Source: a virus
Taxonomy: Duplodnaviria; Caudoviricetes
Length of the DNA stretch: 64,000 nucleotides
IMG/VR virus record: IMGVR_UViG_2898710591_000002
Location: 7,401 to 71,400 of that record
Reading direction: 5' to 3' (one strand)
Shown: positions 4,361 to 18,085 of the stretch, piece by piece
Numbering within the stretch: position 1 is the first letter of the stretch
Layout of the letters: every line of letters starts with the position of its first letter
The notes under the pieces: generated by a model
The model's input: only the letters and a program-made list of their open reading frames with translations
What the model was told of the DNA's origin: nothing
The model's database searches: none
Position numbers and translations under genes: made by a program

Positions 4361-5560
4361 TCAGACATATTTGTTATCCTTTTCTTGAAAGTTACTTAAG
4401 TAGTCCGCCCACTTATTCATCATATCTCGACGATAATCTAAATGTTGAGCACCGTTATATGCTTTACTAATTTTGTTCTCTTGCTCATGGGCGAGTTGTA
4501 GCTCTATAGCCTCATGCATATAGCCCTGTTCATGAAGGGTGGTGCTTGCCAGCCCTCGGAAACCATGCCCCGTCATTTTGTATTTATAACCCATCTGATA
4601 AAGCGCGTTAATAAAAGCATTTTGACTATAAGGTTTGCGAGTGGATGGGTTATAGAATACATACTGCTCTGAAAAATTCAGCTCTTTAATTTGTTGTAAT
4701 ATATCTATGACCTGTGGTGCAAGAGGCACAATGTGAGGTCTATCCATCTTCATTTTGTCTGCAGGTATACGCCAAATTTTATCCTTCCAGTCGATTTCTG
4801 ACCATTCCATAAATCTGATCTCATTAGTTCGTACAAAGGTATAGCATAAGAACCATAGACCTAGTTTGACTGGGATATGGCCAGTGTAGTCATTGATATC
4901 CTGTAAAAGTTTTGGTAACTCTTTTGACGTAATACGGCTGTGATTTTTAGTCTTATGCGGTTTGATTGCCGCTGATAAATCTGCCGCAGGATTTGACGTT
5001 GCTATACCTATGCGAATAGCATGTTTAAATATCTGTCCAACCTCTGCCATAATTCGTCGTGCCATCTCATTAGCGCCACGTGCTTCAACATTCTTACCGA
5101 TTGTCAAAATGTCGGGTGGGGTAATATCATCAATCAGTTTATGACCAATAATTGGTTTTACATCACGAGTATAGGCTGAATAATTTCGGCTAAATGTACT
5201 GGCTGCTAAAAAGGTTCTGCGGTCTGCATACCAAGCCTGAGCAATAGTATCAAAAAGCTTCGAACCATCCTGCTCAGCGCGCTGTTCTTTTTTCTTATCT
5301 TTTGGGTTAATACCTTCATTGATCAGCTGCTTTATTTCTAGATTACGCTGGCGTGCCTGCTGTAATGTAATAACTGGATATTTGCCCAAAGTGAGCGATT
5401 GCTGTTTACCCTGCCAGCGATAAGCGCTGACCCAGACTTTGTTCCCAGTATGTCTTACCCATAGCTGTAGACCGTCACCATCACTATGCTTGTCAGGGCG
5501 GCTAGGGGTACATTTTTCGCTTGGGGCTAACTTATTAATGATAGTATGAGTTAATGGCAT
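4361..5560 (-). CDS. int: P4-like tyrosine integrase of the satellite
   Basis: N-terminal arm-binding domain (DGDGLQLWV...LGKYP) and catalytic R (VRTNE), HGFR, LAH and AY motifs. Confidence 0.92.
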   Translation of the reverse strand: MPLTHTIINKLAPSEKCTPSRPDKHSDGDGLQLWVRHTGNKVWVSAYRWQGKQQSLTLGKYPVITLQQARQRNLEIKQLINEGINPKDKKKEQRAEQDGSKLFDTIAQAWYADRRTFLAASTFSRNYSAYTRDVKPIIGHKLIDDITPPDILTIGKNVEARGANEMARRIMAEVGQIFKHAIRIGIATSNPAADLSAAIKPHKTKNHSRITSKELPKLLQDINDYTGHIPVKLGLWFLCYTFVRTNEIRFMEWSEIDWKDKIWRIPADKMKMDRPHIVPLAPQVIDILQQIKELNFSEQYVFYNPSTRKPYSQNAFINALYQMGYKYKMTGHGFRGLASTTLHEQGYMHEAIELQLAHEQENKISKAYNGAQHLDYRRDMMNKWADYLSNFQEKDNKYV

Positions 5561-5636
5561 GTTGGTATATCTCCGCGTTGGTATAATCTATACCAACAAA
5601 TATACCAATATTCTATATGGTTCGCCACATACCAAG
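5561..5636. repeat. Arm-type integrase binding repeats (TTGGTATA / TATACCAA)
   Basis: gttggtatat, gttggtataa, tataccaac, tataccaat and cataccaag between the int start and the att core. Confidence 0.6.
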
Positions 5637-7260: not shown

Positions 7261-8019
7261 TTACACGTTGATATTAATATTTCTGGTTATGGCATCGAGA
7301 CACGCCTTAACCAGATAAGCGTTGTCATGGTTTTTTATAATCCACTGCAAGTAACTGCGATCAGTGACCGCTACATCTTTGATGGCCTTGCCTTGGTGCT
7401 TACCAAACGTAAAAGTAAGCGGTATTCGCGCCTCTTCGCTGGCAAGGTATAACTGTTCCATACTCGTGATATTGCCTAGCTCGCATAAGTGCTCAAGCAG
7501 CCATAGCGTAAACGTCACATCGTAACCAGCATTGTGAGCATTGCGGCAATACTGACGCGCCAGATCAGGATTAATCGCGTAGGTGAGTGCGCCTAGTGAG
7601 TGACTGTCCAAGTCTGGCAGTAATCGACGCGCCAGCGCTTGCGTGCAAATCGCTTTGTACTGGCTAACATCGACACCAGCATTGGCCGCGACTTGAATGT
7701 CGAAATCCACGTTATGGCCGATAATATACGCTTCACCGACTGGCAGATATTGCGGCACCACAAGCTTATGGTTTCGGTAATCCTTTACGTCGTCTGGCGT
7801 GATGTGACTGACTGCCATTGCGCCGTAGCTGATTGTGCGGTCAGGACAGCAATTAATGGTGTGGCTAGGTATTCCGTCACCAATATCGCTATACATCATT
7901 TCAGCGACAATATAACCATCTTCATGAAAGCGTATGTTTCGATACCCAAGCTGCGTCGCTTCCGCTTCCTTGCTAACATCGGTTGCTTCAAAATCAATTA
8001 TCATTGCTGGCGTGTTCAT
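7261..8019 (-). CDS. DEDDh 3'-5' exonuclease (ExoX-like) with C-terminal FGKHxG domain
   Basis: IDFEAT, GHNVDFD and AHNAGYDV motifs; C-terminal FTFGKHQGK...YLQW. Confidence 0.85.
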   Translation of the reverse strand: MNTPAMIIDFEATDVSKEAEATQLGYRNIRFHEDGYIVAEMMYSDIGDGIPSHTINCCPDRTISYGAMAVSHITPDDVKDYRNHKLVVPQYLPVGEAYIIGHNVDFDIQVAANAGVDVSQYKAICTQALARRLLPDLDSHSLGALTYAINPDLARQYCRNAHNAGYDVTFTLWLLEHLCELGNITSMEQLYLASEEARIPLTFTFGKHQGKAIKDVAVTDRSYLQWIIKNHDNAYLVKACLDAITRNININV

Positions 8020-8552
8020 GCTTTTTCTTCCTTAACAAATTCTTCCCATAGGTAATCGTAAGAGAACGGCTTAACCAACCCCATAACTGGCTTTGGTTTA
8101 TCGCGCTCAGCCTTAAGTGCTTCAACGTCAATTTCTTTAGGAAACTTAGACATGTCTTTTTGCGCTCGTACTACAACATACGACTTACTCATAATGACAG
8201 CGCCGCTACCGTTACGCGCTGCATCAAACGCCATGTTTGCAGCATCCGGTATGGTGCGCTTATCACCATAGCCTTGATAATCAATCGTGGCACAGTACAT
8301 CTCACCATCCGCCATACATACATGGCCGGTCACAACAAACTTGCGTGGCGACTCTAGTATCTCTTTGCGCTTGTCAAAGCTCGTCCAATCATCAAAATAC
8401 TCGGTCCGACTCTTGACTTGATCACCAGTAAGTGAAGCATCGAGGGGTATCTTCATATATCCTTCGTACATTTCAGGCTTACTGGCTTTAACCTGGTTCG
8501 CCTTTTTAATTGCCGCCTTCTTACGCTTATCACGGTTTTTAGCCTTAGCCAT
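8016..8552 (-). CDS. Phage hypothetical protein
   Basis: Overlaps both neighbours; basic N-terminus. Confidence 0.65.
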   Translation of the reverse strand: MAKAKNRDKRKKAAIKKANQVKASKPEMYEGYMKIPLDASLTGDQVKSRTEYFDDWTSFDKRKEILESPRKFVVTGHVCMADGEMYCATIDYQGYGDKRTIPDAANMAFDAARNGSGAVIMSKSYVVVRAQKDMSKFPKEIDVEALKAERDKPKPVMGLVKPFSYDYLWEEFVKEEKA

Positions 8553-9144
8553 GCGCTACCTCCAGACTTAACTCATACCAATCCTGCATCGTGTGCAGGT
8601 CATTTAAAACACTGACATGCCCAAATATCTCGCGCATAAACCCAATGTCGTGACGGCCATGCCAGTTGTGCGGCATACAAGCGATAGCGGTGTTTTCGCA
8701 AAACTCATAAATCAGCGTCGCTATCGTGTAGCTACCAAGTTTTGGGTAGAGTTTTTTGATGACCGATGACATGCAAATAAAATCAAAAGCATCGACCGGC
8801 ACGCCAGCGTTAGACAATAACTGCATGATCTGCTTTGCGTTGTGGCAGACGATATAATCTGTCTCAACATCGGCCATAACGTCGTTTAAGACGTTCTTGT
8901 AGTAGTCAGCGCCGTCCAGCTCTCTGTGGTGAATGCCATACAAGCCCTTTTGCTCGCTTGTGATTGAGCGCCTTACATAACAAAGGCGGTGGCTTTCTTC
9001 CCAAGGCTTCTTAGGGTTTGCCTCAATAACGCCCTGACTTGTATCAGTAAACATGATCTGCGACGATGCCACCTGCGTTGCTTGGGCGTACCTGGTTCTG
9101 TCAGTCGCCTTGATATCGATAATTGTTGCTGCTTTTGTGTTCAT
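8545..9144 (-). CDS. Degenerate DEDD exonuclease paralog (probably inactive)
   Basis: MNTKAATIIDIKATD...ATQ parallels MNTPAMIIDFEATD...ATQ. The catalytic E is replaced by K, and CHNAKQI lacks the ExoII Asp. Confidence 0.65.
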   Translation of the reverse strand: MNTKAATIIDIKATDRTRYAQATQVASSQIMFTDTSQGVIEANPKKPWEESHRLCYVRRSITSEQKGLYGIHHRELDGADYYKNVLNDVMADVETDYIVCHNAKQIMQLLSNAGVPVDAFDFICMSSVIKKLYPKLGSYTIATLIYEFCENTAIACMPHNWHGRHDIGFMREIFGHVSVLNDLHTMQDWYELSLEVAHG

Positions 9145-9176
9145 AATGTTTTTTCCGTAGTAGAGAAAATAGGGGC

Positions 9177-9521
9177 TTAGTGCGTACCGGCCGCCTGATA
9201 TGGCTCAGGCTTTGTTTTTTGATCTCTAAACTTACTTATCGATTCGTCCATGTGACGGGTTAATTCAGTAATAATCTCAATCATAAGTAGATTGGGTTTT
9301 TCAATCGCGCCCTGTTTAAGCAAGTAGTCGAAGTTTTGAGCTATCGCGGTAGCTTGCATCCCCATCATTGCTGAAGCAGTGCCGGCACAGTGAACCAACA
9401 CCGTTCCCTTTTGATTTACATCGGTCGAAATAACAACCATTGCGTGATTTACATCGTCACCAGTGACTTCATTGAAGCTATTGATCAAATCCTGAGACTC
9501 TTTTTCAATATTCTTATTCAT
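9177..9521 (-). CDS. Phage hypothetical protein
   Basis: ORF in the early-left operon; start chosen at 9521 because of the shared leader motif. Confidence 0.65.
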   Translation of the reverse strand: MNKNIEKESQDLINSFNEVTGDDVNHAMVVISTDVNQKGTVLVHCAGTASAMMGMQATAIAQNFDYLLKQGAIEKPNLLMIEIITELTRHMDESISKFRDQKTKPEPYQAAGTH

Positions 9522-9552
9522 AATCATTTTTCCGTAGTAAATTGAATAGGGT

Positions 9553-9645
9553 GTTTAGGCTGGCAGTTGCCCTTTCAAACTACCTCAGCGTCATAGCCTT
9601 GGTGAGCCATCACCTCACCAACTAGCTGATACAAGTCACCTAAAC
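9553..9645 (-). ncRNA. Candidate structured intergenic RNA (three-way junction)
   Basis: Stems GUUUAGGU/GCCUAAAC, UCAGC/GCUGA enclosing UUGGUGAG/CUCACCAA, and GGUAGUU/AACUGCC. Confidence 0.45.
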
Positions 9646-9668
9646 GATTGATGGTTTATTCCAAAAAG

Positions 9669-10493
9669 TTAAAACTGACCGTCAAAATAGGGGGCAAACG
9701 GGATATCGTCATCTACTGGACCACCGCCATTCATAGCAGGGTTGTTGGCTGGCGCGTTGTTTTGGTTTTGATACCCTTGCTGGTTCTGAGTAGCTGCGCC
9801 ACGCTGATAGCTTACGCTACTGCTCTGCATTGGGTTCCCACCATTCATTTGGTTGTTGAAACCATTTTGCGGCTGTCCATTCATCGCCGCTTCGTTTTCG
9901 GCCTTTTCTTTGGACTTGGCGCTATACTTGATCATCGCCTCGGTCACAGTGTTAAAGGCGTCTGGGTTGGCTGGCTGGTTATTGGCCTTTTCAAACGGTA
10001 GCTGGCGCGTATCAGCATCAAAGACATTAAACAACTCAGGCGCACCGCGCTTTACTTCATACTTTGTCTTATGAAAGTAGTATCTGTCCGTCAAGAACAT
10101 GCCAACTTTCTTGCCAGCCAGCTCAGGCGCAACCATACCGCTAACTGTTACGTCTTTTTGCTCGTCATAGTTATATTCTTGGTAAGAGCCTTGCACTTGC
10201 GAAAGTGACGGTGTGTTGGTGCAAAGCATCATGGCGTTGATAATGTTTTCACCAGACCAACTTCTGCCTGATTCGTCCGCATAAGGAATCTCGATCATCG
10301 TGGTTGATTTGTCCGCGTTCATAATATGGACAGTAAGGTTGTGGACTGCCGGACTCATGCGCGTGTTAGTTTTCCATGCCGCGCTAATGATCTTATAAAC
10401 ATCGCTGGTATCGCCAGTAATGTAGTTTGACTGGCCGACCTTCGCAGCCTTTGATTTGTCCAACTGCCAAACTGATTGTGATTGCTGATTCAT
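9669..10493 (-). CDS. Phage single-stranded DNA-binding protein-like
   Basis: Q/N/G-rich linker and acidic DDDIPF tail; lies directly after a Sak4-like gene. Confidence 0.65.
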   Translation of the reverse strand: MNQQSQSVWQLDKSKAAKVGQSNYITGDTSDVYKIISAAWKTNTRMSPAVHNLTVHIMNADKSTTMIEIPYADESGRSWSGENIINAMMLCTNTPSLSQVQGSYQEYNYDEQKDVTVSGMVAPELAGKKVGMFLTDRYYFHKTKYEVKRGAPELFNVFDADTRQLPFEKANNQPANPDAFNTVTEAMIKYSAKSKEKAENEAAMNGQPQNGFNNQMNGGNPMQSSSVSYQRGAATQNQQGYQNQNNAPANNPAMNGGGPVDDDIPFAPYFDGQF

Positions 10494-10515
10494 GGGTGTT
10501 TCTCCTGATTAAAAA

Positions 10516-11175
10516 TTAAGCCTGTTCTGGCTGCTGGTTTGGGTTTTTTGCAATGCCGTAGTATTCGCATATCGCGTCATCTACCGCGTTAAGGTCATTC
10601 GGGATAAGCTCAGACTGGAACATATCTTCAGGACTTTTAACGGTGTTAAAGCCATTGTTTTGCGTCATGAAGAAGTGGCCGTCATCACGGAGTGTTGTTT
10701 GAAGTACAGTGGACACAAGACCTTCCAGTACAATCTTGTCATCTAAAACCTTACCCATTGTCTTGATGCGCTGGCGTCCATTATCTTCTTGAAGGTGAGC
10801 TAGTATGTAAACGCGCTTGTCATTACTAACGTGATTGATTGCAGTATCAAACACGGAAAAAGCGTTGTATGACAAAATGTTATAGCGATCAAAAGCAGCG
10901 CCTTTCTCATACTTCTGATTGTTGCCACGTATGTACTCAAGACTCATGATGTATTGAAAGTCGTCAATGACAATAACAGGGGCCTTGCTTCTAACTAGCG
11001 CGTCGCAAATCTTAGGGGCGCTATCAGTTGCAAGCTTTTTAAAATCCTTGCCACCACGAAAGGGTAGTGGTTTGTTGACGACATTGATAACACCAGTTTG
11101 GCTTGGGTCTAAATGTTTTAGGCTGTAGGACTTGCCTTCGCCACTATTGCCTAGAATTAAAGTCACGATAGCCAT
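10516..11175 (-). CDS. Sak4-like (AAA_24) recombination ATPase
   Basis: Walker A GNSGEGKS, VIVIDD Walker B, and ILAH and VKSP motifs. Confidence 0.75.
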   Translation of the reverse strand: MAIVTLILGNSGEGKSYSLKHLDPSQTGVINVVNKPLPFRGGKDFKKLATDSAPKICDALVRSKAPVIVIDDFQYIMSLEYIRGNNQKYEKGAAFDRYNILSYNAFSVFDTAINHVSNDKRVYILAHLQEDNGRQRIKTMGKVLDDKIVLEGLVSTVLQTTLRDDGHFFMTQNNGFNTVKSPEDMFQSELIPNDLNAVDDAICEYYGIAKNPNQQPEQA

Positions 11176-11357
11176 CAGCTGCCCTCCCCATCCATCATAA
11201 AAATACTGTCAAAGTCAGCAAGCAAGCGGTCACTTACTTTCTTGTCGGTCGGCTGGCGCGTGCTTTCTTTGCAACCGCTGCCAATGCAGGCTGTTAGGCG
11301 CAGCTCATCTTCTAGCGCCCACTCCCACTGAGCTTGTGGCTGTTGGTACTCACTCAT
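11175..11357 (-). CDS. Small phage hypothetical protein
   Basis: Start/stop overlaps with both neighbours. Confidence 0.55.
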   Translation of the reverse strand: MSEYQQPQAQWEWALEDELRLTACIGSGCKESTRQPTDKKVSDRLLADFDSIFMMDGEGS

Positions 11358-11635
11358 AACTCTCTCCCATACGCCGCAGCGATTACTTTATTTGCATGAG
11401 CCGCTTCCTTAGCCTGCTGGCTCGCTTCGTACTCTTCCCAGCTCATATCGTCCTCGCTGGCAGGATCGGTGTTTTCCTCAAGCCAAAGCTGGTGCTCTAA
11501 GTGCGTGCGGTCTTGCGACTCGATGCCAGTATCAATGGCGTTTGCGCCAGTGACGACTATCGCGCTGGCGAGTAGGGCGAACAATGCGAGCTTTGCTGTC
11601 AGCTCGGCATTGACTAACTTTAATAATTGTTTCAT
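11354..11635 (-). CDS. Phage protein with N-terminal membrane/signal helix
   Basis: LALFALLASAIVVTGANA hydrophobic stretch; RBS GGAG. Confidence 0.65.
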   Translation of the reverse strand: MKQLLKLVNAELTAKLALFALLASAIVVTGANAIDTGIESQDRTHLEHQLWLEENTDPASEDDMSWEEYEASQQAKEAAHANKVIAAAYGREL

Positions 11636-11638
11636 AAT
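11610..11638 (+). promoter_or_regulatory. Sigma70 promoter antisense to the early-left operon
   Basis: TTGACT (11610-11615) - 17 bp - CATAAT (11633-11638). Confidence 0.65.
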
Positions 11639-11644
11639 GGGTTC

Positions 11645-11694
11645 TCCGTAGTAGGTAAGCCCTGATCAGTTGCGTCTGATTGGGGCTTTTTTTA
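11645..11694 (+). ncRNA. Predicted ~50-nt small antisense RNA (5' UCCGUAGUAG seed plus terminator hairpin)
   Basis: Lies between the 11610-11638 promoter and the intrinsic terminator aagccctgatcag-ttgcgt-ctgattggggc-T7. Confidence 0.55.
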
Positions 11695-11850
11695 TGCCTG
11701 ATCGTTAAGCGCTTTGATCAGCGCGTCTGCCAAACGCACTGCTTTAACAGCGACCTGGTGAGTAGTGAGACGGTTATCAGTTGCCGCGACTTGCATAGCA
11801 GCTATTGCTATTTGATCGCGTCGGCTTAACGGTTCTGATTGATTACTCAT
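11692..11850 (-). CDS. Small phage protein, first gene of the PL operon
   Basis: MSNQSEPLSRRDQIAIAAMQ...AVRLADALIKAL, a recurrent small phage protein pattern. AAGGA RBS before ATG 11850. Confidence 0.65.
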   Translation of the reverse strand: MSNQSEPLSRRDQIAIAAMQVAATDNRLTTHQVAVKAVRLADALIKALNDQA

Positions 11851-11924
11851 AAGATGGTCCTTATGTGGTTGAGGGTAATAAACAAAGCGATTGCTTGCAG
11901 GGCGATTGCCGTTTTGATGCACCT

Positions 11925-11994
11925 ATTATGCGCATACGCATTTATAAATGCAAGTATTATTGCATTAAAAAATGCACTATATGCACAAACGCAT
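11925..11994 (-). promoter_or_regulatory. PL promoter and OL operators
   Basis: Minus strand TTGCAT-17-CATAAT (11953-11925); operators ATGCGCATACGCAT (11928-11941) and ATGCACAAACGCAT (11981-11994). Confidence 0.7.
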
Positions 11995-12006
11995 GACCAC
12001 AGACAC

Positions 12007-12033
12007 AAAAAAACCACCTGCAATGAGGTGGTT
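12007..12033 (-). terminator. cI terminator
   Basis: aaccacct-gcaatg-aggtggtt hairpin with a T-run on the minus strand. Confidence 0.65.
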
Positions 12034-12067
12034 ATCAAGTTTTTCTTATTCTTATTTGATATTGCGC

Positions 12068-12760
12068 TTAGTGACCAGCTCTAAAATACTGTCGGCCTAT
12101 TATAATTAGGCTTTCGTGATTGTCGGCTGTAATTATCTTGTCCGGGTACTTATCATTAAAGCTATGCAGTCGTAAATTGCCGCCGCCTTCCAAAAAGACC
12201 TGTTTAAACATGCGGTCCCCATCTAGCAGCAAGGCATAAACCTGACCGTCTTTTAGTTCTTTGTCGCTGAGTATGACGCCAACTTCATCTTTATCATTGA
12301 TGTAAGGAGCCATACTATCATTGACAGCGCAGACCAACTTAAAGTCTTCCGGCCTCACGCCTGCCTTAATAAAAAATTCTTCTTCAAAATCCCTGTAGCC
12401 CTTTATTTCCTCAAAGCCAAAGTCTTTGTTTCCATCGCCACAGCAGAAAACCACGCTGTAAATCGGTATTGATATCAACTCTCTTCTCCTTTCTTTTACC
12501 CGAACATTATTACTGTTAACAATAGGCGTTAACAGACTTTTATTTTCCTCGTTTGTAAGGTCGTTATATCTCAAGTCCGCAACAGACACGCCGAAATAGT
12601 CCGCGTACTTCTTTAGGGTTCGGTCACTTGGATTGACCGTGGTTCCGTTCAAAATCCGAGATGTGGTTGTTTGTGGAACGCCAATATCATCTTGAAGCTG
12701 GGTGGCGTTCGTCCTTTTGCTGTGCATTAGGTGATCTAGGTTCTTAATAAGAGTGTTCAT
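12068..12760 (-). CDS. cI: CI-like repressor (HTH + S24 autopeptidase)
   Basis: XRE HTH (IGVPQTTTSRILNG), Cys-Gly cleavage-like site (FCCGDG), and catalytic Ser (NDSMAP) and Lys (MFKQV). Confidence 0.9.
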   Translation of the reverse strand: MNTLIKNLDHLMHSKRTNATQLQDDIGVPQTTTSRILNGTTVNPSDRTLKKYADYFGVSVADLRYNDLTNEENKSLLTPIVNSNNVRVKERRRELISIPIYSVVFCCGDGNKDFGFEEIKGYRDFEEEFFIKAGVRPEDFKLVCAVNDSMAPYINDKDEVGVILSDKELKDGQVYALLLDGDRMFKQVFLEGGGNLRLHSFNDKYPDKIITADNHESLIIIGRQYFRAGH

Positions 12761-12806
12761 ATAAACCCCAGCGGTTAATTGGCTAATATTTTGTGTTACT
12801 TATTTT

Positions 12807-12876
12807 ATGCGTTTACGCATATCTTTAATAGCGTCAATGCAAAAGTGGTTGCTTTAATGCGTAAGCGCATTATAAT
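12807..12876 (+). promoter_or_regulatory. OR operators and PR promoter
   Basis: ATGCGTTTACGCAT (12807-12820) and ATGCGTAAGCGCAT (12857-12870), the latter between TTGCTT and TATAAT (12871-12876). Same 14-bp palindrome family as OL. Confidence 0.72.
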
Positions 12877-12908
12877 AAGCGTATCGATATAAAAAAGAGA
12901 ATCCAATC

Positions 12909-13160
12909 ATGCTACCTCCTCATATCTGCCTAGAAAAGCTAGAAGAGGCTGGTATCAATCAAAAAGATATCAGCTCAAAAGTTGGCGCCAATCAGTCAAG
13001 TATCTCTCGCATCCAACGCCAGTTATTCAAGAATTCTGGCTGGCAGACGGTAGAGAGAATTCAAAGTCTTTACCAACACGTCTGTGTAAATAAAGAAAGT
13101 ATCGATAGTTTCTTGGATTATGAGGAATACATCAAAACCCAAGATATCGAACATGCTTAA
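12909..13160 (+). CDS. cro: Cro-like HTH protein
   Basis: INQKDISSKVGANQSSISRI HTH; divergent from cI. Confidence 0.78.
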   Translation: MLPPHICLEKLEEAGINQKDISSKVGANQSSISRIQRQLFKNSGWQTVERIQSLYQHVCVNKESIDSFLDYEEYIKTQDIEHA

Positions 13161-13184
13161 CCACTACTACTACGGAGTTAAATC

Positions 13185-13826
13185 ATGTCCACAAATCAAT
13201 TATCACTCGAAAAACAGCGCCAGTCACGCAATATGCAATCAGACATCTTGCACGCAGTTGCAGAGACTAGGCAGGTAAATGTCGCTAAATGCCTTGGCGT
13301 AGAGTCAAGTACAGTCGGTCGCTGGCTAGATGCAAAAAACCCAGAAAGCCAAGTTGTGCGCTTTTGCGACATGCTCGCACTTTGCGGCCTAAAGATCGTG
13401 CCAGCTAATGCGAAATGCTATGACGCGGCAAAAATCGAAATACTGTTTCGTATATCAAAGGACCATTTTCAGCGTTTAGATGCAGTTGATGACTTCTTTC
13501 AAAACGACGCTGGCATGACTGACAGCACTGACGCTCGTTACAGTCGTGCTTGTGCGCTATCAAACGTAAACACCTATCCAAGCCGCTTATCTACAAAGCT
13601 TGCCAGCCTTTATGCCGCAATCAAGCGCTCAATAACTGCTAAGAATGATGTTATTAGACCGCCAACATTGGTCGCAAGACAAGCGGCACGCGACGAGATA
13701 GAAGAAGAGCGTCAAGCACTCACTGCCGACGAACAGAAGTTTTGGAACCTGTTTTATATCTTTATTCACGCTGTATTGGTACTGGTCGTACTGTCAGCAA
13801 TTTATAGATTTTGGGGTGAATCATGA
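13185..13826 (+). CDS. CII-like regulator with long C-terminal extension ending in a TM helix
   Basis: Located after cro; N-terminal ~100 aa has a CII-like pattern (VAKCLGVESSTVGRW...LALCGLKIVP); C-terminal FWNLFYIFIHAVLVLVVLSAIYRFW. Confidence 0.65.
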   Translation: MSTNQLSLEKQRQSRNMQSDILHAVAETRQVNVAKCLGVESSTVGRWLDAKNPESQVVRFCDMLALCGLKIVPANAKCYDAAKIEILFRISKDHFQRLDAVDDFFQNDAGMTDSTDARYSRACALSNVNTYPSRLSTKLASLYAAIKRSITAKNDVIRPPTLVARQAARDEIEEERQALTADEQKFWNLFYIFIHAVLVLVVLSAIYRFWGES

Positions 13827-14749
13827 TCGAAGAAATGCACTTTGCCAATGTTAGCACGCGTGCAAAGCTCATCAAAAAAGAGTGGGCGGCAGCGGTTGCG
13901 GAATACTTAGAAGAAGTTGGCGCAACCGACCTCGATGACCCAAACGCACCAAAACGCAAAACACCGCGCACCGACGCACAGCTACGCGAGCTTGAAGGTA
14001 TTGAGCGTAAAAAAGCCGACGAGCGAGCACAAGCAGAGTACAAAGCGGCAATGGAGCGCTTGAACAACGGCACCGCGGTACTGCGTCAGCCCAAAGAGCG
14101 CACGCCGGTAGTGGTCACTAAACCAAAAGGCAAGGAGCTGGCCAAAAAGCCGACCAAGCCGCGCAAAGCGAGAGCTAAAAAGCCAACCAAGGTGGTTTTG
14201 ACAAAAAACTATCATCAGCTGCGCGAAGCGGCGGTAAATAACCGCATTAAATCCATGCTCAAGATGCTAAACGCTGGCGGGAAAATTGAAATGTTAGTTT
14301 CGACAGACCGCAAAAACCATGCGCTTTACTGTTTACAGCGTAAAGACATCGTGCGCCTCAGAGAGCGTGCCAGCGAAGACCTTATCCGCGTTAAAAACAT
14401 TACTAGCGGGAAAAGCTACTTCGTACTTGATCGTTACCCGCGTTACAGCGCTGATACACCGATCAACATACTAGAGCCAAAAGCATTATTGCGAGCGCTT
14501 ACGAGCGGCAAGCTGGTGCGCGTTGATAGCATCAAGCAAAACCTTTCGCATGTCTATAAGCACATTACCGAACTGGTCAAGTCTTACGGCTTTAATATCC
14601 ATTCAATACATGCAGACAACAAGCAAGTGATTGGCTGGATTTTACTAGAGGATGAATCAAAAGAAGCTGCTTATAAAGAGTTTGAAGCTATCGCGGCAGG
14701 GATCGGCGCAACCGTCAAGCAGGTAATCGCTGCGGGCAACGGGCAATAA
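13823..14749 (+). CDS. Phage hypothetical protein (basic)
   Basis: 308-aa ORF with ATGA overlap. Confidence 0.7.
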   Translation: MIEEMHFANVSTRAKLIKKEWAAAVAEYLEEVGATDLDDPNAPKRKTPRTDAQLRELEGIERKKADERAQAEYKAAMERLNNGTAVLRQPKERTPVVVTKPKGKELAKKPTKPRKARAKKPTKVVLTKNYHQLREAAVNNRIKSMLKMLNAGGKIEMLVSTDRKNHALYCLQRKDIVRLRERASEDLIRVKNITSGKSYFVLDRYPRYSADTPINILEPKALLRALTSGKLVRVDSIKQNLSHVYKHITELVKSYGFNIHSIHADNKQVIGWILLEDESKEAAYKEFEAIAAGIGATVKQVIAAGNGQ

Positions 14750-14844
14750 AAAACGCTCATCAATGCGACTTGATGAGCGTTCAACTAACTAAACACGTAC
14801 TGGATACGCAAGAGGATTATGACATGAGTTATCAAGATATACAA
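14746..14844 (-). ncRNA. OOP-like antisense RNA unit (promoter, ~60-nt RNA, terminator)
   Basis: Minus strand TTGTAT-17-CATAAT (14844-14816); terminator aacgctcatcaa-gtcgca-ttgatgagcg-T6 ending ~14748. Confidence 0.55.
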
Positions 14845-15306
14845 CAAGAAGCGCAATCAGGATTCATTTTTCAACAAGGCGAGCTTAGAGAGCCTATAGG
14901 CGAACCACAGCACTACGAATGTCAGATTTGTAGCAATGAGGCAAGCGGCAACTTCTACGGTACTGGTTTTATGCTATGCGTCTTGTGTGCTGACTATGTG
15001 GCCAATGTTTACACGCATTTGCGTACTGGAAAATATGCCACATGGGATATAGAAGATGAATCGACCGCAGCAAGAAAGGCAAAAAGAAAGGATGTGATTA
15101 CTCAGTCCTTAAGAACACAAGTTTTTGAACGCGATCAGTACCGCTGCATTAATTGCGATTCCCATAAAAAACTATGTGCCGATCACATTTACCCTGAGTC
15201 AAAAGGTGGTGCTACCACACTAGAGAACCTACAAACCCTATGCCAGTCGTGCAATAACTCAAAAGGCACTAAGACGATGGAAGAATGGTTAGGGGGTGCA
15301 AAGTGA
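14824..15306 (+). CDS. HNH endonuclease with N-terminal Zn-binding CxxC pairs
   Basis: VFERDQYRCINC...DHIYPESKGG...NLQTLCQSCNNSKG. Confidence 0.88.
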   Translation: MSYQDIQQEAQSGFIFQQGELREPIGEPQHYECQICSNEASGNFYGTGFMLCVLCADYVANVYTHLRTGKYATWDIEDESTAARKAKRKDVITQSLRTQVFERDQYRCINCDSHKKLCADHIYPESKGGATTLENLQTLCQSCNNSKGTKTMEEWLGGAK

Positions 15307-16340
15307 AATACTCAACTGACATAGTAGAGCAGCTAATGGAGCAATACTTGAGAGTACCCGTAAACCTTCTAAAGATGCAGAAGGTTATTAAAAACCCTAG
15401 TGCGTATCTTTGCTTGCAATTTATATGGGCAAAAACGAGCTGGAAGAATAACTCTGACACGATTTCTTATTCTCAGTTTAAAGATGATGATCGTTACGGT
15501 ACTGGCTTAAGCATTAAAACTATCCAGCGCTCAATCGAAAAATTAGAAGAACTAAAGCTAATTATTGTTAAACCTAGTTTTAACAATATGCACCAATTCT
15601 CTATAAATATAGCTGAAATAAATCGTTTGGCTGATGACCAAGCCCAGTCAAAAAGCACACAAGCCAAGTCAAATAGACCTGACTTGGAAGATACAAGCCC
15701 AGTCAATTTGTCTATAAGCCAAGTCAATTTGACCTACAAGCATGGTCATTCTGTCTATAAGCCTAGTCAAATTGACCTACACATAACTACTTCTACATTA
15801 CTACCTTTTAATACTTATACATTAACTACTAGAAAATTATTTAACACAGATAATTCTACGGTTAAAAAACTATCACCAGCAAAACAAGAGCGAGAGATTT
15901 TAGTTAAATCGCTTTTTGAAAAATGGCTTGAGTTGTCTGGCCAAAGAATCAAGCCATCCAAAAAACGCCTTAGCCACATCAACGCACGATTGGATGACGA
16001 CTTCACGGAACAGCAAATCATAGATGCCATGACCTACGTTGCTACCGATAGCTGGCATGTAGCCAACGGTCAAAATCTAATTGAGATTGCTGTTCGGTCA
16101 ACTGAGCAGTTAGAAAAGAAATTAATCAAGGTGGCTTCACTCGCTAATCAACCACCAGTCAACCACCAGTCAAGCAAGCCACAGCGCTCAACGCCTGATC
16201 CTCTTGCAGTCAACGCAAAGTACGACGTACCAAGCGAAATGACCGACGAGCAGAAACGCGCATGGTTCGCAGGTGGCGCAGACAGCAATATGCCAAGCGA
16301 TATCGCACCAGACAACAGCCACGACTACTACTACGGGTAA
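15303..16340 (+). CDS. Phage replication initiator (O-like)
   Basis: N-terminal wHTH (ISYSQF...TGLSIKTIQRSIEKLEELKLI), internal iterons, followed by a DnaC-like gene. GTG start overlaps the HNH stop. Confidence 0.8.
   Translation: MKYSTDIVEQLMEQYLRVPVNLLKMQKVIKNPSAYLCLQFIWAKTSWKNNSDTISYSQFKDDDRYGTGLSIKTIQRSIEKLEELKLIIVKPSFNNMHQFSINIAEINRLADDQAQSKSTQAKSNRPDLEDTSPVNLSISQVNLTYKHGHSVYKPSQIDLHITTSTLLPFNTYTLTTRKLFNTDNSTVKKLSPAKQEREILVKSLFEKWLELSGQRIKPSKKRLSHINARLDDDFTEQQIIDAMTYVATDSWHVANGQNLIEIAVRSTEQLEKKLIKVASLANQPPVNHQSSKPQRSTPDPLAVNAKYDVPSEMTDEQKRAWFAGGADSNMPSDIAPDNSHDYYYG
15640..15780 (+). repeat. Replication-origin iterons inside the initiator gene
   Basis: Six ~21-22 bp copies of AAGCC(C/A/T)AGTCAAWTWGWC(C)TA-like sequence, followed by an AT-rich tract. 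Confidence 0.8.
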
Positions 16341-16346
16341 ATCATC

Positions 16347-17240
16347 ATGAACACAGCATACGAAAACGCATCACTCAGAAACCCTAAGCCCGAATTGCTT
16401 GAGCCTACACACACGGCAGGTCGTGGTAACGCGCTAGATAACATCATGAGCCGCATGCCAGCGTTTAATACCGTCCCAGTTACCACAGACTGCCCAAAAC
16501 ATGGCAAGCAGCGCTGGCAGGTCACAGAAGCAGTTGCTAACGCTGGTAACGTGCAGTGCCAAAAGTGCCAATGGGAGCATGACGCGCAGCAAGCCAAGCT
16601 ACAAGAGCTAAAGGGCGACATGCTTGCCAGCCTAGATATACCAAGCGAGCACATCAACGCTGATTTTAGTCAATGGACGGTAGGCGGTGATGATCAGACT
16701 CGCGCACGCATTGCCAAGATCATCAATTTTGCCAAAGGTTACGCAGCAAACTACCGCAAAGGCCATGCCAACATCTTACTCACAGGCAACACAGGCACAG
16801 GCAAGACCAAGCTTGCGTGTTTGATTATCAACGAAATCGTGCGTCAGCGCTACTACGCACAGATGACCGTGGCATTTAAGCGCTCAGGTCAGATTCAGCA
16901 CGAGATAAAAGCCACTTGGGATAAGACCAGCAGTGACAGCGCAGCGAGCTACATTGAGCGTCTGAGCCGTTCTACCGCTTTGATAATTGATGAAGTAGGT
17001 GAAGGTGATACGTCAGCAGTGGATAAATGGGCTGATAAAGACCGCGAGCAGTTATCAGCAATCATCGATAGACGATACCAGCTACGCTTGCCAACGATTA
17101 TCACTACCAACATGACTGATAAAGAATTTTATGACCATATTGGTGATAGAGCGTCAGACCGCTTGAGACAGAACATCGTGCAGATACCCTGCGTGTGGCC
17201 CAGCTATCGCGTGTTGACTGGTCGAGTGAGGACGTTATGA
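16347..17240 (+). CDS. DnaC/IstB-like AAA+ helicase loader
   Basis: CPKH...CQKC Zn motif, GNTGTGKT, LIIDEVG, IIDRRY...PTIITTN and DRL. Confidence 0.88.
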   Translation: MNTAYENASLRNPKPELLEPTHTAGRGNALDNIMSRMPAFNTVPVTTDCPKHGKQRWQVTEAVANAGNVQCQKCQWEHDAQQAKLQELKGDMLASLDIPSEHINADFSQWTVGGDDQTRARIAKIINFAKGYAANYRKGHANILLTGNTGTGKTKLACLIINEIVRQRYYAQMTVAFKRSGQIQHEIKATWDKTSSDSAASYIERLSRSTALIIDEVGEGDTSAVDKWADKDREQLSAIIDRRYQLRLPTIITTNMTDKEFYDHIGDRASDRLRQNIVQIPCVWPSYRVLTGRVRTL

Positions 17241-18085
17241 GCATCAAGCCTTTAATGCGGTACCACGGCGCGAAATGGCGTTTAGCCCCTTGGATTATCA
17301 GCCACTTCCCGCAGCACCATTGTTATGTAGAGCCTTTTGGCGGTAGTGCTGCGGTGCTTATTAGTAAAGAGCCGTCAAGTCGTGAGGTTTATAACGACAA
17401 GAATTTTGAGATTGTAAATCTGTTTAACGTCATTCGTGATGACGAAATGCGAACGCAGCTGCTGCGCTTACTTGTTATGACGCCTTATTCACGCACTGAG
17501 TTTGAATTTGCAAAAGAAGTTGGTCAATACGATACGCCAGTGATGATCGCGCTTAAATTACTGGTACGTGCTCAAATGGGCTTTGGTAGTGCTGGTGCAA
17601 CTCGCGGCAATACTGGTTTTAGATTAGACACAGCTCGAGGCGGCACCTCGTTACAGTCGCTTTGGTCAGACTTACCAGCAAACGTACTTAATGTGACCGA
17701 GCGCTTACGTAATGTCGTTATCGAAAATACCGACGCTTACAACGTGATTAAGCAACATGACCGCAGCAACACGCTGTTTTATCTTGATCCTCCTTATACG
17801 CTAGACACGCGCACAAACAAGGACAGTTACGGAAAGTTTGAAATGCGCGAGTTTGAACATACTCGTTTACTCGAGCTGACTCTAAAATCAAAGGGTATGT
17901 TTGTGATTAGTGGTTACGACAATGAGTTATACAACGACACGCTGGCTGGCTGGACTAAATCATCAAGACAGACAGCTATCAGTAGTCGCAATGGTAGCGG
18001 TAAGCGCACTGAAGTGCTTTGGATATCGCCTAATTGTGAGCAGCAACAGACAGACCTTTTTGGTTTCGAGGAGATAAGTGCGTGA
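17237..18085 (+). CDS. D12-class (Dam-like) DNA adenine methyltransferase
   Basis: RYHGAKW, YVEPFGGSAAV, EVYND and FYLDPPY. Confidence 0.9.
   Translation: MSIKPLMRYHGAKWRLAPWIISHFPQHHCYVEPFGGSAAVLISKEPSSREVYNDKNFEIVNLFNVIRDDEMRTQLLRLLVMTPYSRTEFEFAKEVGQYDTPVMIALKLLVRAQMGFGSAGATRGNTGFRLDTARGGTSLQSLWSDLPANVLNVTERLRNVVIENTDAYNVIKQHDRSNTLFYLDPPYTLDTRTNKDSYGKFEMREFEHTRLLELTLKSKGMFVISGYDNELYNDTLAGWTKSSRQTAISSRNGSGKRTEVLWISPNCEQQQTDLFGFEEISA

What the first reader, a model, noticed from the sequence alone, without database searches (positions are those of the whole stretch)
9142..16349. Candidate phage multi-target small-RNA regulon: a ~50-nt RNA complementary to a motif at the RBS of five early genes
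Seen: YTACTACGGR lies 8-9 nt before the ATG of five genes on both early arms. These are the inactive exonuclease paralog (9154-9163, minus), ORF 9177..9521 (9531-9540, minus), ORF 11354..11635 (11645-11654, minus), the cII-like gene (13167-13176, plus) and the DnaC-like loader (16328-16337, plus, inside the YYYG end of Rep). Chance gives about 2 copies of an 8-mer in 64 kb over both strands, and not at a fixed distance from ATG. At the 11645 copy, the opposite strand has TTGACT-17-CATAAT (11610-11638) and an intrinsic terminator (~11657-11694). This predicts the RNA 5'-UCCGUAGUAGGUAAGCCCUGAUCAG...CUGAUUGGGGCUUUUUUU, with an unpaired 5' seed that can pair 9-10 nt with all five leaders. Known: cis-antisense RNAs such as lambda OOP and P22 sar act on one target. 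Inference: this RNA acts in trans to co-repress translation of the lysis/lysogeny regulator, the replication loader and early-left genes, forming a second, RNA-based control or immunity layer outside CI operators.
Basis: partly seen in the sequence, partly recalled or inferred. Interest (0 to 1): 0.88.

Follow-up and report, generated by a model that had tools for sequence, protein, structure and literature searches.

The report
Phage antisense small RNA matching early-gene ribosome sites
A Psychrobacter temperate phage and its relatives carry a conserved gene-like unit for a roughly 50-base antisense RNA, and the RNA's front end matches a phage-only sequence tag at the ribosome-binding sites of several early genes, so one small RNA may switch many early genes off together, though this is not yet shown.

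Summary
YTACTACGGR occurs 5 times (0.26 expected by chance), each copy 9-10 nt before the ATG of an early gene.

The promoter-plus-terminator unit at 11610-11695(+) is the best sigma-70 match in an 8-kb scan. It is present in all 29 related loci that cover the site, and in 2 further Psychrobacter genomes. The promoter hexamers are conserved, the terminator hairpins differ and show compensatory changes, and the T-run always lies on the antisense strand. A sar-like cis-antisense RNA over the RBS of the 93-aa gene is therefore likely (~0.75).

The RBS tag (core ACTACGGAG) is specific to this phage family and to early genes. Five complete relatives carry 1-7 copies, and the reversed-pattern control gives 0. 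In two host genomes every CTACGGAG-N6-9-ATG match lies inside the prophage.

Action in trans on the other tagged sites is plausible (duplex energies -16 to -20 kcal/mol against a median of -7.8) but unproven. I found no seed/target co-variation. The cII tag is replaced by an ordinary SD in many relatives that carry the same RNA unit. No RNA data were available.

Verdict: partly supported, and a new variant of phage antisense control.

The parts
11610..11638 (+). Predicted sigma-70 promoter of the antisense RNA. The -35 is TTGACT (11610-11615), the spacer is 17 nt, and the -10 is CATAAT (11633-11638). The promoter lies inside codons 1-9 of the 93-aa gene on the other strand, and the -10 contains the complement of that gene's ATG.
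   Evidence: One search gives a 10/12 match, the best in 9000-17000. TTGAYT-17-CATAAT is kept in all 29 related loci plus G011 and G087. Variable columns are 1 of 12 in the hexamers against 9 of 17 in the spacer.
11644..11695 (+). Predicted antisense RNA of about 50 nt. The 5' end is inferred to lie 6-8 nt after the -10. The 5' single-stranded part is (U)CCGUAGUAG, followed by a hairpin and a U-run.
   Evidence: Searches give the fold and predicted lengths of 49-54 nt in all lineages, with a seed P(unpaired) of 0.60-0.86. No expression data exist.
11657..11695 (+). Intrinsic terminator: a 13-bp stem, a 6-nt loop and T7, with the T-run on the + strand only.
   Evidence: One search finds 9 consensus pairs, 3 of them with changes on both sides. 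Several different hairpin sequences occur among relatives.
11645..11654 (-). RBS tag of the 93-aa gene. This is the cis target and is fully complementary to the RNA.
11354..11635 (-). The 93-aa gene, second gene of the leftward early operon. It matches no Pfam or PHROG family. By eye, its N-terminus looks like a signal peptide.
9154..9163 (-). RBS tag before the exonuclease-like paralog 8545..9144. A candidate trans target.
   Evidence: (-17.5 kcal/mol).
9531..9540 (-). RBS tag before ORF 9177..9521. A candidate trans target.
   Evidence: -16.6 kcal/mol.
13167..13176 (+). RBS tag before the cII-like gene 13185..13826. A candidate trans target. This is one of two alternative cII RBS alleles in the family.
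   Evidence: -19.6 kcal/mol.
16328..16337 (+). RBS tag before the DnaC-like loader 16347..17240, inside the last codons of the O-like gene. A candidate trans target.
   Evidence: -16.2 kcal/mol.
11692..11853 (-). First gene of the leftward operon (53 aa). Its stop codon starts the A-run that is the T-run of the terminator on the other strand.
11860..12000 (-). Inferred leftward early promoter and operator region, with repeats of the ATGCG-N4-CGCAT type that are also seen at 12805-12862. It converges on the RNA promoter about 250 nt away.
   Evidence: Read. This is inference and was not tested.

Best explanation
The window is a lambdoid temperate phage of Psychrobacter. A constitutive sigma-70 promoter sits inside the first codons of the 93-aa gene, the second gene of the leftward early operon, and fires backwards. 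It makes an RNA of about 50 nt that ends at an intrinsic terminator in the spacer upstream of that gene.

Shown by sequence and comparison: the unit is conserved as a promoter-seed-hairpin-U-run module.

Inferred: the RNA pairs over its full length with the leftward early mRNA, covers the RBS of the 93-aa gene and blocks its translation. The duplex may also be cleaved, which would lower expression of the downstream recombination genes. This is how P22 sar acts on ant.

Also inferred, and less certain: the unpaired 5' end, (CU)CCGUAGUAG, additionally pairs 8-11 nt with the same tag at the RBS of other early genes and dampens their translation. In this phage those genes are the exonuclease-like gene, ORF 9177..9521, the cII-like gene and the DnaC-like gene. 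In a lysogen, or at low early-mRNA levels, one RNA would then hold down early genes on both arms. After induction, strong convergent transcription and excess target mRNA would titrate it.

The confidence given is for the whole statement, including action in trans. For the RNA gene with cis action alone I put about 0.75.
For: (1) Unit. It is the best promoter match in 8 kb, together with a strong terminator on the + strand, where no + strand gene lies upstream.

(2) Conservation. The unit is present in 29 of 29 related loci that cover the start of the gene, which give 18 distinct sequences, and in 2 more Psychrobacter genomes of a third lineage. In that lineage the protein is only 45-47% identical over residues 32-92. 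Hexamers vary at 1 of 12 columns, against 9 of 17 in the spacer and 50 of 90 further into the gene (Fisher p = 0.019 and 0.002). Hairpin sequences differ and carry compensatory pairs, and the T-run is always on the antisense side.

(3) Tag. There are 5 copies against 0.26 expected. Five complete relatives have 1-7 tag-ATG matches and 0 for the reversed control, and in the three records without terminal repeats that carry more than one copy (G003, G004, G007) all copies lie within 6-12 kb of a 55-62 kb record. Tags precede non-homologous ORFs and have differing flanks.

(4) Host control. In two 3.4-Mb host genomes, 6 of 6 CTACGGAG-N6-9-ATG matches lie in the prophage. In 154 Psychrobacter genomes, every genome with 3 or more matches either carries the unit or is the fragmented G115. 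In G087 one of the three matches lies on a different contig from the unit.

(5) Pairing. Duplex energies of the 16-nt 5' part with 215 translation start regions rank the cis site first (-27.3). The four other tagged sites lie at -16.2 to -19.6, against a median of -7.8 and a 5th percentile of -12.4.

(6) Informative relatives without the unit also lack the tag: L024, L025 and phage pOW20-A.
Against: No transcript evidence was available.

The complementarity of the RNA to the tag is automatic, because the RNA is antisense to one tagged RBS. It is therefore not independent evidence for action in trans.

There is no seed/target co-variation. The mean contiguous match of a phage's own RNA to its tags is 8.6 (n = 57), against 8.0 for RNAs of other lineages (n = 1354). 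The two seed variants, CUCCGUAGAAG and CUCCGUAGUAAG, are not compensated at the other sites.

Target membership is unstable. cII carries an ordinary SD in L012, L013, L015, L016, L021 and L026, although the same unit is present there. The tag allele travels with a particular cro 3' end, as expected for mosaic exchange.

In lineages a and b the position 7 nt after the -10 is a pyrimidine. In lineage c the U-run has only 4 U.

The -35 lies in conserved (V/I)-N codons and the -10 in ATT-ATG, so part of the promoter conservation could come from coding or RBS constraint.

Single tag-like RBSs occur in unrelated Psychrobacter loci with no unit nearby.
Confidence: 0.42

Rival explanations
1. Cis-only antisense RNA. 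The RNA exists and represses only the 93-aa gene and its operon. The shared RBS tag is there for another reason. One possibility is a copied or exchanged RBS/linker cassette at module boundaries that eases mosaic recombination. Another is a translation signal read by something else. Under this view the short matches at other RBSs have no regulatory effect.
For: The unit is always attached to the 93-aa gene. Tags sit at mosaic joints. cII has two RBS alleles that go with different upstream genes, and first-operon ORFs of 52-107 aa follow the same leader. There is no seed/target co-variation. The left-arm copies share a longer upstream element, CCCTAYTT, which suggests copied cassettes.
Against: Across non-homologous genes only the 8-9-nt core is shared, while the flanks differ. 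That argues for selection on the core rather than recent copying. The core departs from an ordinary SD and is absent from host gene starts. An abundant RNA with a free complementary 5' end of 9-11 nt would be expected to have some effect.
Confidence: 0.33
2. Protein-read tag. The tag is the binding or cleavage site of a phage-encoded protein that shuts off early mRNAs, in the way T4 RegA and RegB act on early ribosome-binding sites. That comparison is from my own recall. Under this view the antisense unit is irrelevant to the tag, or absent.
For: The tag is specific to early genes and to this phage family, sits at a fixed distance from the ATG and includes the SD core. Many early ORFs have no known function.
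Against: PHROG and Pfam scans of 32 distinct early ORFs found no RNA-binding, translational-repressor or endoribonuclease family. No candidate protein was identified, whereas a conserved complementary RNA unit is present.
Confidence: 0.1
3. No RNA gene. The hairpin is an mRNA structure or an insulator against stray antisense transcription. The promoter-like hexamers are by-products of conserved codons and of an A/T-rich spacer before the ATG.
For: The -35 overlaps conserved (V/I)-N codons, and the -10 overlaps ATT-ATG, which also occurs before other tagged genes. In the 8-kb scan the number of promoter-like sites is not above chance (10 found against 12.5 expected).
Against: The 17-nt spacing and both hexamers are kept in three protein lineages, while the spacer varies. 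The T-run is always on the antisense side, directly after a GC-rich stem that changes sequence but keeps its pairing. There is no + strand gene upstream to terminate.
Confidence: 0.12

Closest known systems
P22 sar RNA (68/69 nt antisense repressor of the antirepressor gene ant)
   Same: A small RNA made from a promoter inside the 5' part of its target gene. It covers the target's RBS and stops at a terminator in the upstream spacer, and it faces a convergent stronger promoter. Size and function of sar come from passages of a review (PMC12197685) and from passages of PMC2629481. The promoter and terminator placement of sar is my own recall.
   Different: The target here is a 93-aa gene of unknown function in the leftward early operon, not ant in an immI region. 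The RNA is shorter (~50 nt). Its 5' end matches a tag repeated at other early RBSs, which is not described for sar. No sequence relation was tested.
Lambda OOP RNA (77 nt)
   Same: A short antisense RNA of a lambdoid phage that lowers expression of an early regulator and works outside the CI operators (passages of PMC12197685, and PMC5415839).
   Different: OOP overlaps the 3' end of cII and acts through RNase III cleavage. Here the RNA overlaps an RBS in the other arm, and cII would be reached only in trans through a 10-11-nt match, and only in some relatives.
P1/P7 c4 immunity RNA
   Same: A phage RNA that blocks translation by pairing short complementary stretches around a ribosome-binding site, and that contributes to immunity (passage of PMC12197685).
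   Different: c4 acts on one operon (ant). No Rfam family, c4 included if Rfam holds it, matched the region at E <= 1.
Trans-acting phage sRNAs that target host genes (Qin DicF; lambda LPR1/PreS)
   Same: Short phage-encoded RNAs that act by seed pairing on several mRNAs. DicF appears in a table passage of PMC12197685. For LPR1 I saw the abstract of bioRxiv 10.1101/2024.10.31.621285.
   Different: Those RNAs regulate host genes. Here the candidate targets are the phage's own early genes, marked by a common tag.

Membership tests
sar-type cis-antisense RNA over an RBS (a functional class) | Promoter inside the 5' coding part of the target gene, firing antisense | tested here: met
   TTGACT-17-CATAAT at 11610-11638(+) lies within codons 1-9 of 11354..11635(-). 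It is conserved in all relatives.
sar-type cis-antisense RNA over an RBS (a functional class) | RNA spans the target RBS and ends at an intrinsic terminator in the upstream spacer | tested here: met
   Searches show the hairpin 11657-11688 plus T7, with compensatory changes.
sar-type cis-antisense RNA over an RBS (a functional class) | Transcript of the predicted size exists and represses the target | not testable with these tools
   No RNA run holds the region.
P22 sar (the family itself) | The target is the antirepressor gene ant of an immI region | tested here: not met
   The target protein matches no Pfam or PHROG family and lies in the leftward early operon next to Sak4/SSB genes.
Seed-type trans-acting sRNA (Hfq-class architecture) | Unpaired seed plus a Rho-independent terminator with a U-tail | tested here: met
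   Mean P(unpaired) of the seed is 0.60-0.86 across the 13 predicted unit RNAs. A 14th, unrelated regex match in L053 gave 0.48. The tail is U7 in lineages a and b but only U4 in lineage c.
Seed-type trans-acting sRNA (Hfq-class architecture) | Several mRNAs carry seed matches in their translation start regions | tested here: met
   The four non-cis sites lie at -16.2 to -19.6 kcal/mol, against a median of -7.8 over 215 start regions.
Seed-type trans-acting sRNA (Hfq-class architecture) | Seed and targets co-vary among relatives | tested here: not met
   Own against foreign RNA gives 8.6 against 8.0 contiguous matches, and the variant seeds are not compensated. Power is low because the seed hardly varies.
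Seed-type trans-acting sRNA (Hfq-class architecture) | Chaperone binding and regulation of the targets | not testable with these tools
   This needs an experiment.
Lambda OOP | Antisense to the 3' end of cII | tested here: not met
   The unit lies 1.5 kb away in the other arm.
Any curated RNA family (Rfam 15) | Covariance-model match | tested here: not met
   In 8500-17500 at E <= 1 there was only a partial SSU-rRNA-like hit at 9588-9632 and a chance miRNA hit. Nothing matched at 11600-11700.

The most novel reading that the evidence does not exclude
A temperate-phage family marks the ribosome-binding sites of 2-7 of its own early genes, on both arms, with a private 9-11-nt tag absent from host gene starts. 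A single constitutive ~50-nt RNA encoded in the early-left operon reads that tag with its 5' end. This would be a phage-internal post-transcriptional regulon. It could act as an RNA layer of immunity that also reaches heteroimmune relatives sharing the tag. Genes would join or leave the regulon simply by swapping RBS alleles, as seen for cII.
Probability: 0.4. Interest if true: 0.8.

Novelty: new variant of a known kind. Interest (0 to 1): 0.62.

Why it matters
Known phage antisense RNAs (sar, OOP, c4, aQ) each act on one transcript, and known trans-acting phage sRNAs aim at host genes. A single small RNA that reads a common tag on many of the phage's own early genes would be a new way for a temperate phage to co-ordinate or silence its early programme independently of the CI operators.

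It would also show how regulon membership can evolve by exchange of RBS cassettes. The case is directly testable, because two sequenced Psychrobacter strains carry such prophages.

Even if only the cis action holds, this is a well-conserved, previously undescribed antisense RNA gene in Psychrobacter phages. My searches found no description of it. They covered open-access papers and preprints only, and supplementary files were not seen.

Tried and rejected
(a) Expression data. The look-up of sequencing runs listed no RNA holder. Read laying was not used because only DNA contigs were on offer.

(c) Host-wide SD variant. This was rejected. In 16 of 16 non-prophage TACTACGGR copies of one host, none precedes a convincing gene start (the fetched stretches were only 209 nt, so ORF lengths are capped). 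All CTACGGAG-N6-9-ATG matches in two hosts are prophage-borne.

(d) Analogous tag systems in more distant phages. A crude count of recurrent 7-mers before ORF starts in L011 and L022-L025 found only SD-like words.

(e) Second antisense unit at the 9154 copy. It has a CATAAT and a downstream terminator-like hairpin at 9193-9210, but the -35 gives only 7/12. I did not count it.

(f) G115 has 5 tag matches but no unit by the strict pattern. Its prophage lies on contigs of 2.4-4 kb that end before the expected site, so it is uninformative.

(g) Eight single tag matches in other Psychrobacter genomes. They have no unit within 10 kb and no homolog of 11 early proteins of the window (tblastn, E <= 1e-5). 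I treated them as background.

(h) Ascertainment. The units there were collected with a pattern that required the hexamers. The gene-anchored views show that no homolog locus lacks them, so the selection dropped nothing.

(i) No structure prediction, complex prediction or large protein search was run, because none bore on the question.

Full report
WHAT THE WINDOW IS. The record is a 71.4-kb virus record. The region has lambdoid order:
- integrase 4361..5560(-)
- excisionase-like gene
- exonuclease 7261..8019(-)
- a 178-aa ORF
- an exonuclease paralog 8545..9144(-), 28% identical to the exonuclease, with aligned acidic positions replaced
- ORF 9177..9521(-)
- SSB-like 9669..10493(-)
- Sak4-like 10516..11175(-)
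- a 60-aa ORF
- the 93-aa ORF 11354..11635(-)
- a 53-aa ORF 11692..11853(-)
- an operator-like region
- CI 12068..12760(-)
- cro-like 12909..13160(+)
- cII-like 13185..13826(+)
- HNH
- O-like 15285..16340(+)
- DnaC-like 16347..17240(+)
- methyltransferase, RusA-like and Q-like genes

Close relatives are prophages in two named Psychrobacter genomes, so the host is Psychrobacter.

YTACTACGGR occurs 5 times, where shuffles give 0.26 and 0 of 100 shuffles reach 5. Every copy is on the coding strand, 9-10 nt before an ATG that opens a real ORF. Two further exact 8-mers lie in coding sequence. With one mismatch allowed there is no enrichment. The promoter TTGACT-17-CATAAT at 11610-11638(+) is the best of 10 promoter-like sites in 9000-17000. 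It is followed by the complement of the tag and by a 13-bp hairpin with T7.

THE ANTISENSE UNIT IS CONSERVED LIKE A GENE. I searched for homologs of the 93-aa protein in viral contigs, genomes and metagenomes, and for the cII-like protein in viral contigs. Together these gave 29 loci that cover the start of the 93-aa gene.

All 29 show TTGAYT-17-CATAAT, then 5-8 nt, then CTCCGTAG(T/A)A(G/A), then a linker of 3-9 nt, a GC-rich hairpin and a T-run. They make 18 distinct sequences.

A strict pattern search of 154 Psychrobacter species genomes found the unit in 4 genomes. Two of them belong to a third lineage, whose protein is only 45-47% identical over residues 32-92.

Among the 18 sequences, the hexamers vary at 1 of 12 columns, the 17-nt spacer at 9 of 17, and the next 90 nt of the gene at 50 of 90 (Fisher p = 0.019 and 0.002). 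That set was gathered with a pattern containing the hexamers. However, the gene-anchored views show that no homolog lacks them.

The hairpin occurs in several unrelated sequence versions. Three of the 9 consensus pairs show changes on both sides. The T-run is always on the antisense strand. On the sense strand the hairpin is followed by the tag, not by a T-run. No + strand gene lies upstream that would need this terminator.

Caveats apply to the promoter. The -35 falls in conserved (V/I)-N codons, and the -10 falls in ATT-ATG, which also precedes other tagged genes. Part of the promoter conservation may therefore be indirect. I put the existence of the RNA at about 0.75. Predicted RNAs are 49-54 nt, and the seed is mostly unpaired, with P(unpaired) of 0.60-0.86. 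In lineage c the seed sits in the loop of a small 5' hairpin.

THE TAG IS PRIVATE TO THE PHAGE FAMILY AND TO EARLY GENES. In relatives, the core (A)CTACGGAG, usually extended to CTACTACGG, precedes 1-7 early ORFs per locus. These include non-homologous ORFs, and the flanks differ.

In five complete relatives, ACTACGGR-N7-12-ATG occurs 1-7 times and the reversed control 0 times. Where the record is linear and holds several copies (G003, G004, G007), all copies lie within 6-12 kb of a 55-62 kb record.

In two 3.4-Mb host genomes, all 6 CTACGGAG-N6-9-ATG matches are in the prophage. TACTACGGR is rarer there than its reversed control, at 21-22 copies against 80-86. The 16 non-prophage copies of one host are not at convincing gene starts.

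Across 154 genomes, ACTACGGAG-N6-10-ATG matches 46 times in 30 genomes. Genomes with 3 or more matches are those with the unit, plus G115. In G087 one of its three matches lies on another contig. G115 is uninformative because its fragmented contigs end before the expected site. The other matches are singles or pairs. Eight that I fetched have no unit and no homolog of the window's early proteins.

Informative relatives without the unit also lack the tag: L024, L025 and phage pOW20-A.

DOES THE RNA ACT IN TRANS? Evidence for:
- The 16-nt 5' part pairs best with the cis site (-27.3 kcal/mol).
- Next come the four other tagged sites (-16.2 to -19.6), against a median of -7.8 and a 5th percentile of -12.4 over 215 start regions.
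- One untagged site, the integrase leader, reaches -16.8.
- The pairing covers the SD.

Evidence against:
- The complementarity is automatic, since the RNA is antisense to one tagged site.
- There is no co-variation (8.6 against 8.0 contiguous matches).
- The two natural seed variants are not compensated elsewhere.
- The cII RBS exists in two alleles. One is the tag, linked to one type of cro 3' end. The other is an ordinary SD, found in at least six loci that carry an identical RNA unit.

The regulon, if real, is therefore fluid, and cII is not a fixed member. A tag that is kept at the core while its flanks vary, that is absent from host starts, and that is confined to early genes needs a reader. 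The RNA is the only candidate found. PHROG and Pfam scans of 32 distinct early ORFs gave no RNA-binding or translational-repressor family. I put action in trans at about 0.4-0.45.

COMPARISON WITH KNOWN SYSTEMS. The architecture is that of P22 sar: a promoter inside the target gene, an RNA over the RBS, and a terminator in the upstream spacer. The placement details for sar are recalled. Its size and function come from passages of PMC12197685 and PMC2629481. It is not sar itself, because the target and location differ. It is not OOP, which is antisense to the 3' end of cII. It matches no Rfam family.

Multi-target phage sRNAs are known for host targets: DicF (table passage) and lambda LPR1/PreS (abstract). 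Three full-text searches and the 2025 review (passages only) showed no phage RNA that reads a shared tag on the phage's own early genes, and nothing on Psychrobacter phage RNAs. Subscription journals and supplementary files were not covered.

VERDICT. The feature is a new variant of a known kind, phage antisense control, with an unproven but testable multi-target extension.

Noticed in passing
window 9545-9668, core 9588-9632 (-): An intergenic stretch in the leftward early mRNA, between the SSB-like gene and a tagged RBS, contains a ~45-nt segment like small-subunit rRNA. The Rfam SSU hit scores 34 bits, E = 1e-6, which is below the gathering score. The segment equals nt ~233-267 of a Salmonella 16S record. 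The whole 125 nt is 90-95% identical over most or all of its length in 15 related loci (4 more keep only part of it), which is better kept than the neighbouring proteins. A ~43-nt core recurs at 87-91% identity in Shewanella, Yersinia, Escherichia, Klebsiella and Stenotrophomonas phages. It may be a mimic of a 16S helix.
   Followed up: partly
window 9164-9176 and 9541-9553 (-); relatives: The left-arm tag copies share a second upstream element, CCCTAYTT, 4-7 nt before the tag. The right-arm copies lack it and instead have CYACTA repeats. Its meaning is unknown.
   Followed up: no
window 13161-13184 and loci L012-L027: The cII-like gene has two alternative RBS alleles in the family. One is the tag, linked to one cro 3' end. 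The other is an ordinary purine-rich SD. The swap point lies just before the ATG, a clean mosaic joint.
   Followed up: yes
window 8545-9144 (-) against 7261-8019 (-): The exonuclease paralogs are 28% identical. In the alignment the shorter copy has K where the longer has the E of its N-terminal D-x-E, and it lacks the D residues after the conserved H-N. This is consistent with a catalytically dead copy.
   Followed up: partly
window 10556-10563 (-) and 16326-16340 (+): The tag sequence also occurs as coding sequence for Tyr-Tyr-Gly. One site is near the C-terminus of the Sak4-like protein and is kept in relatives. The other forms the very C-terminus of two different replication-protein alleles, where it doubles as the RBS of the loader gene.
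   Followed up: partly
window 11925-11996 and 12805-12862: Palindromes of the ATGCG-N4-CGCAT type flank the CI gene on both sides and overlap -10/-35-like hexamers. These are probably the CI operators OL and OR.
   Followed up: no
window 5561-5595 (-): The integrase leader is the only untagged start region with a predicted duplex to the RNA's 5' part as strong as the tagged ones (-16.8 kcal/mol).
   Followed up: no
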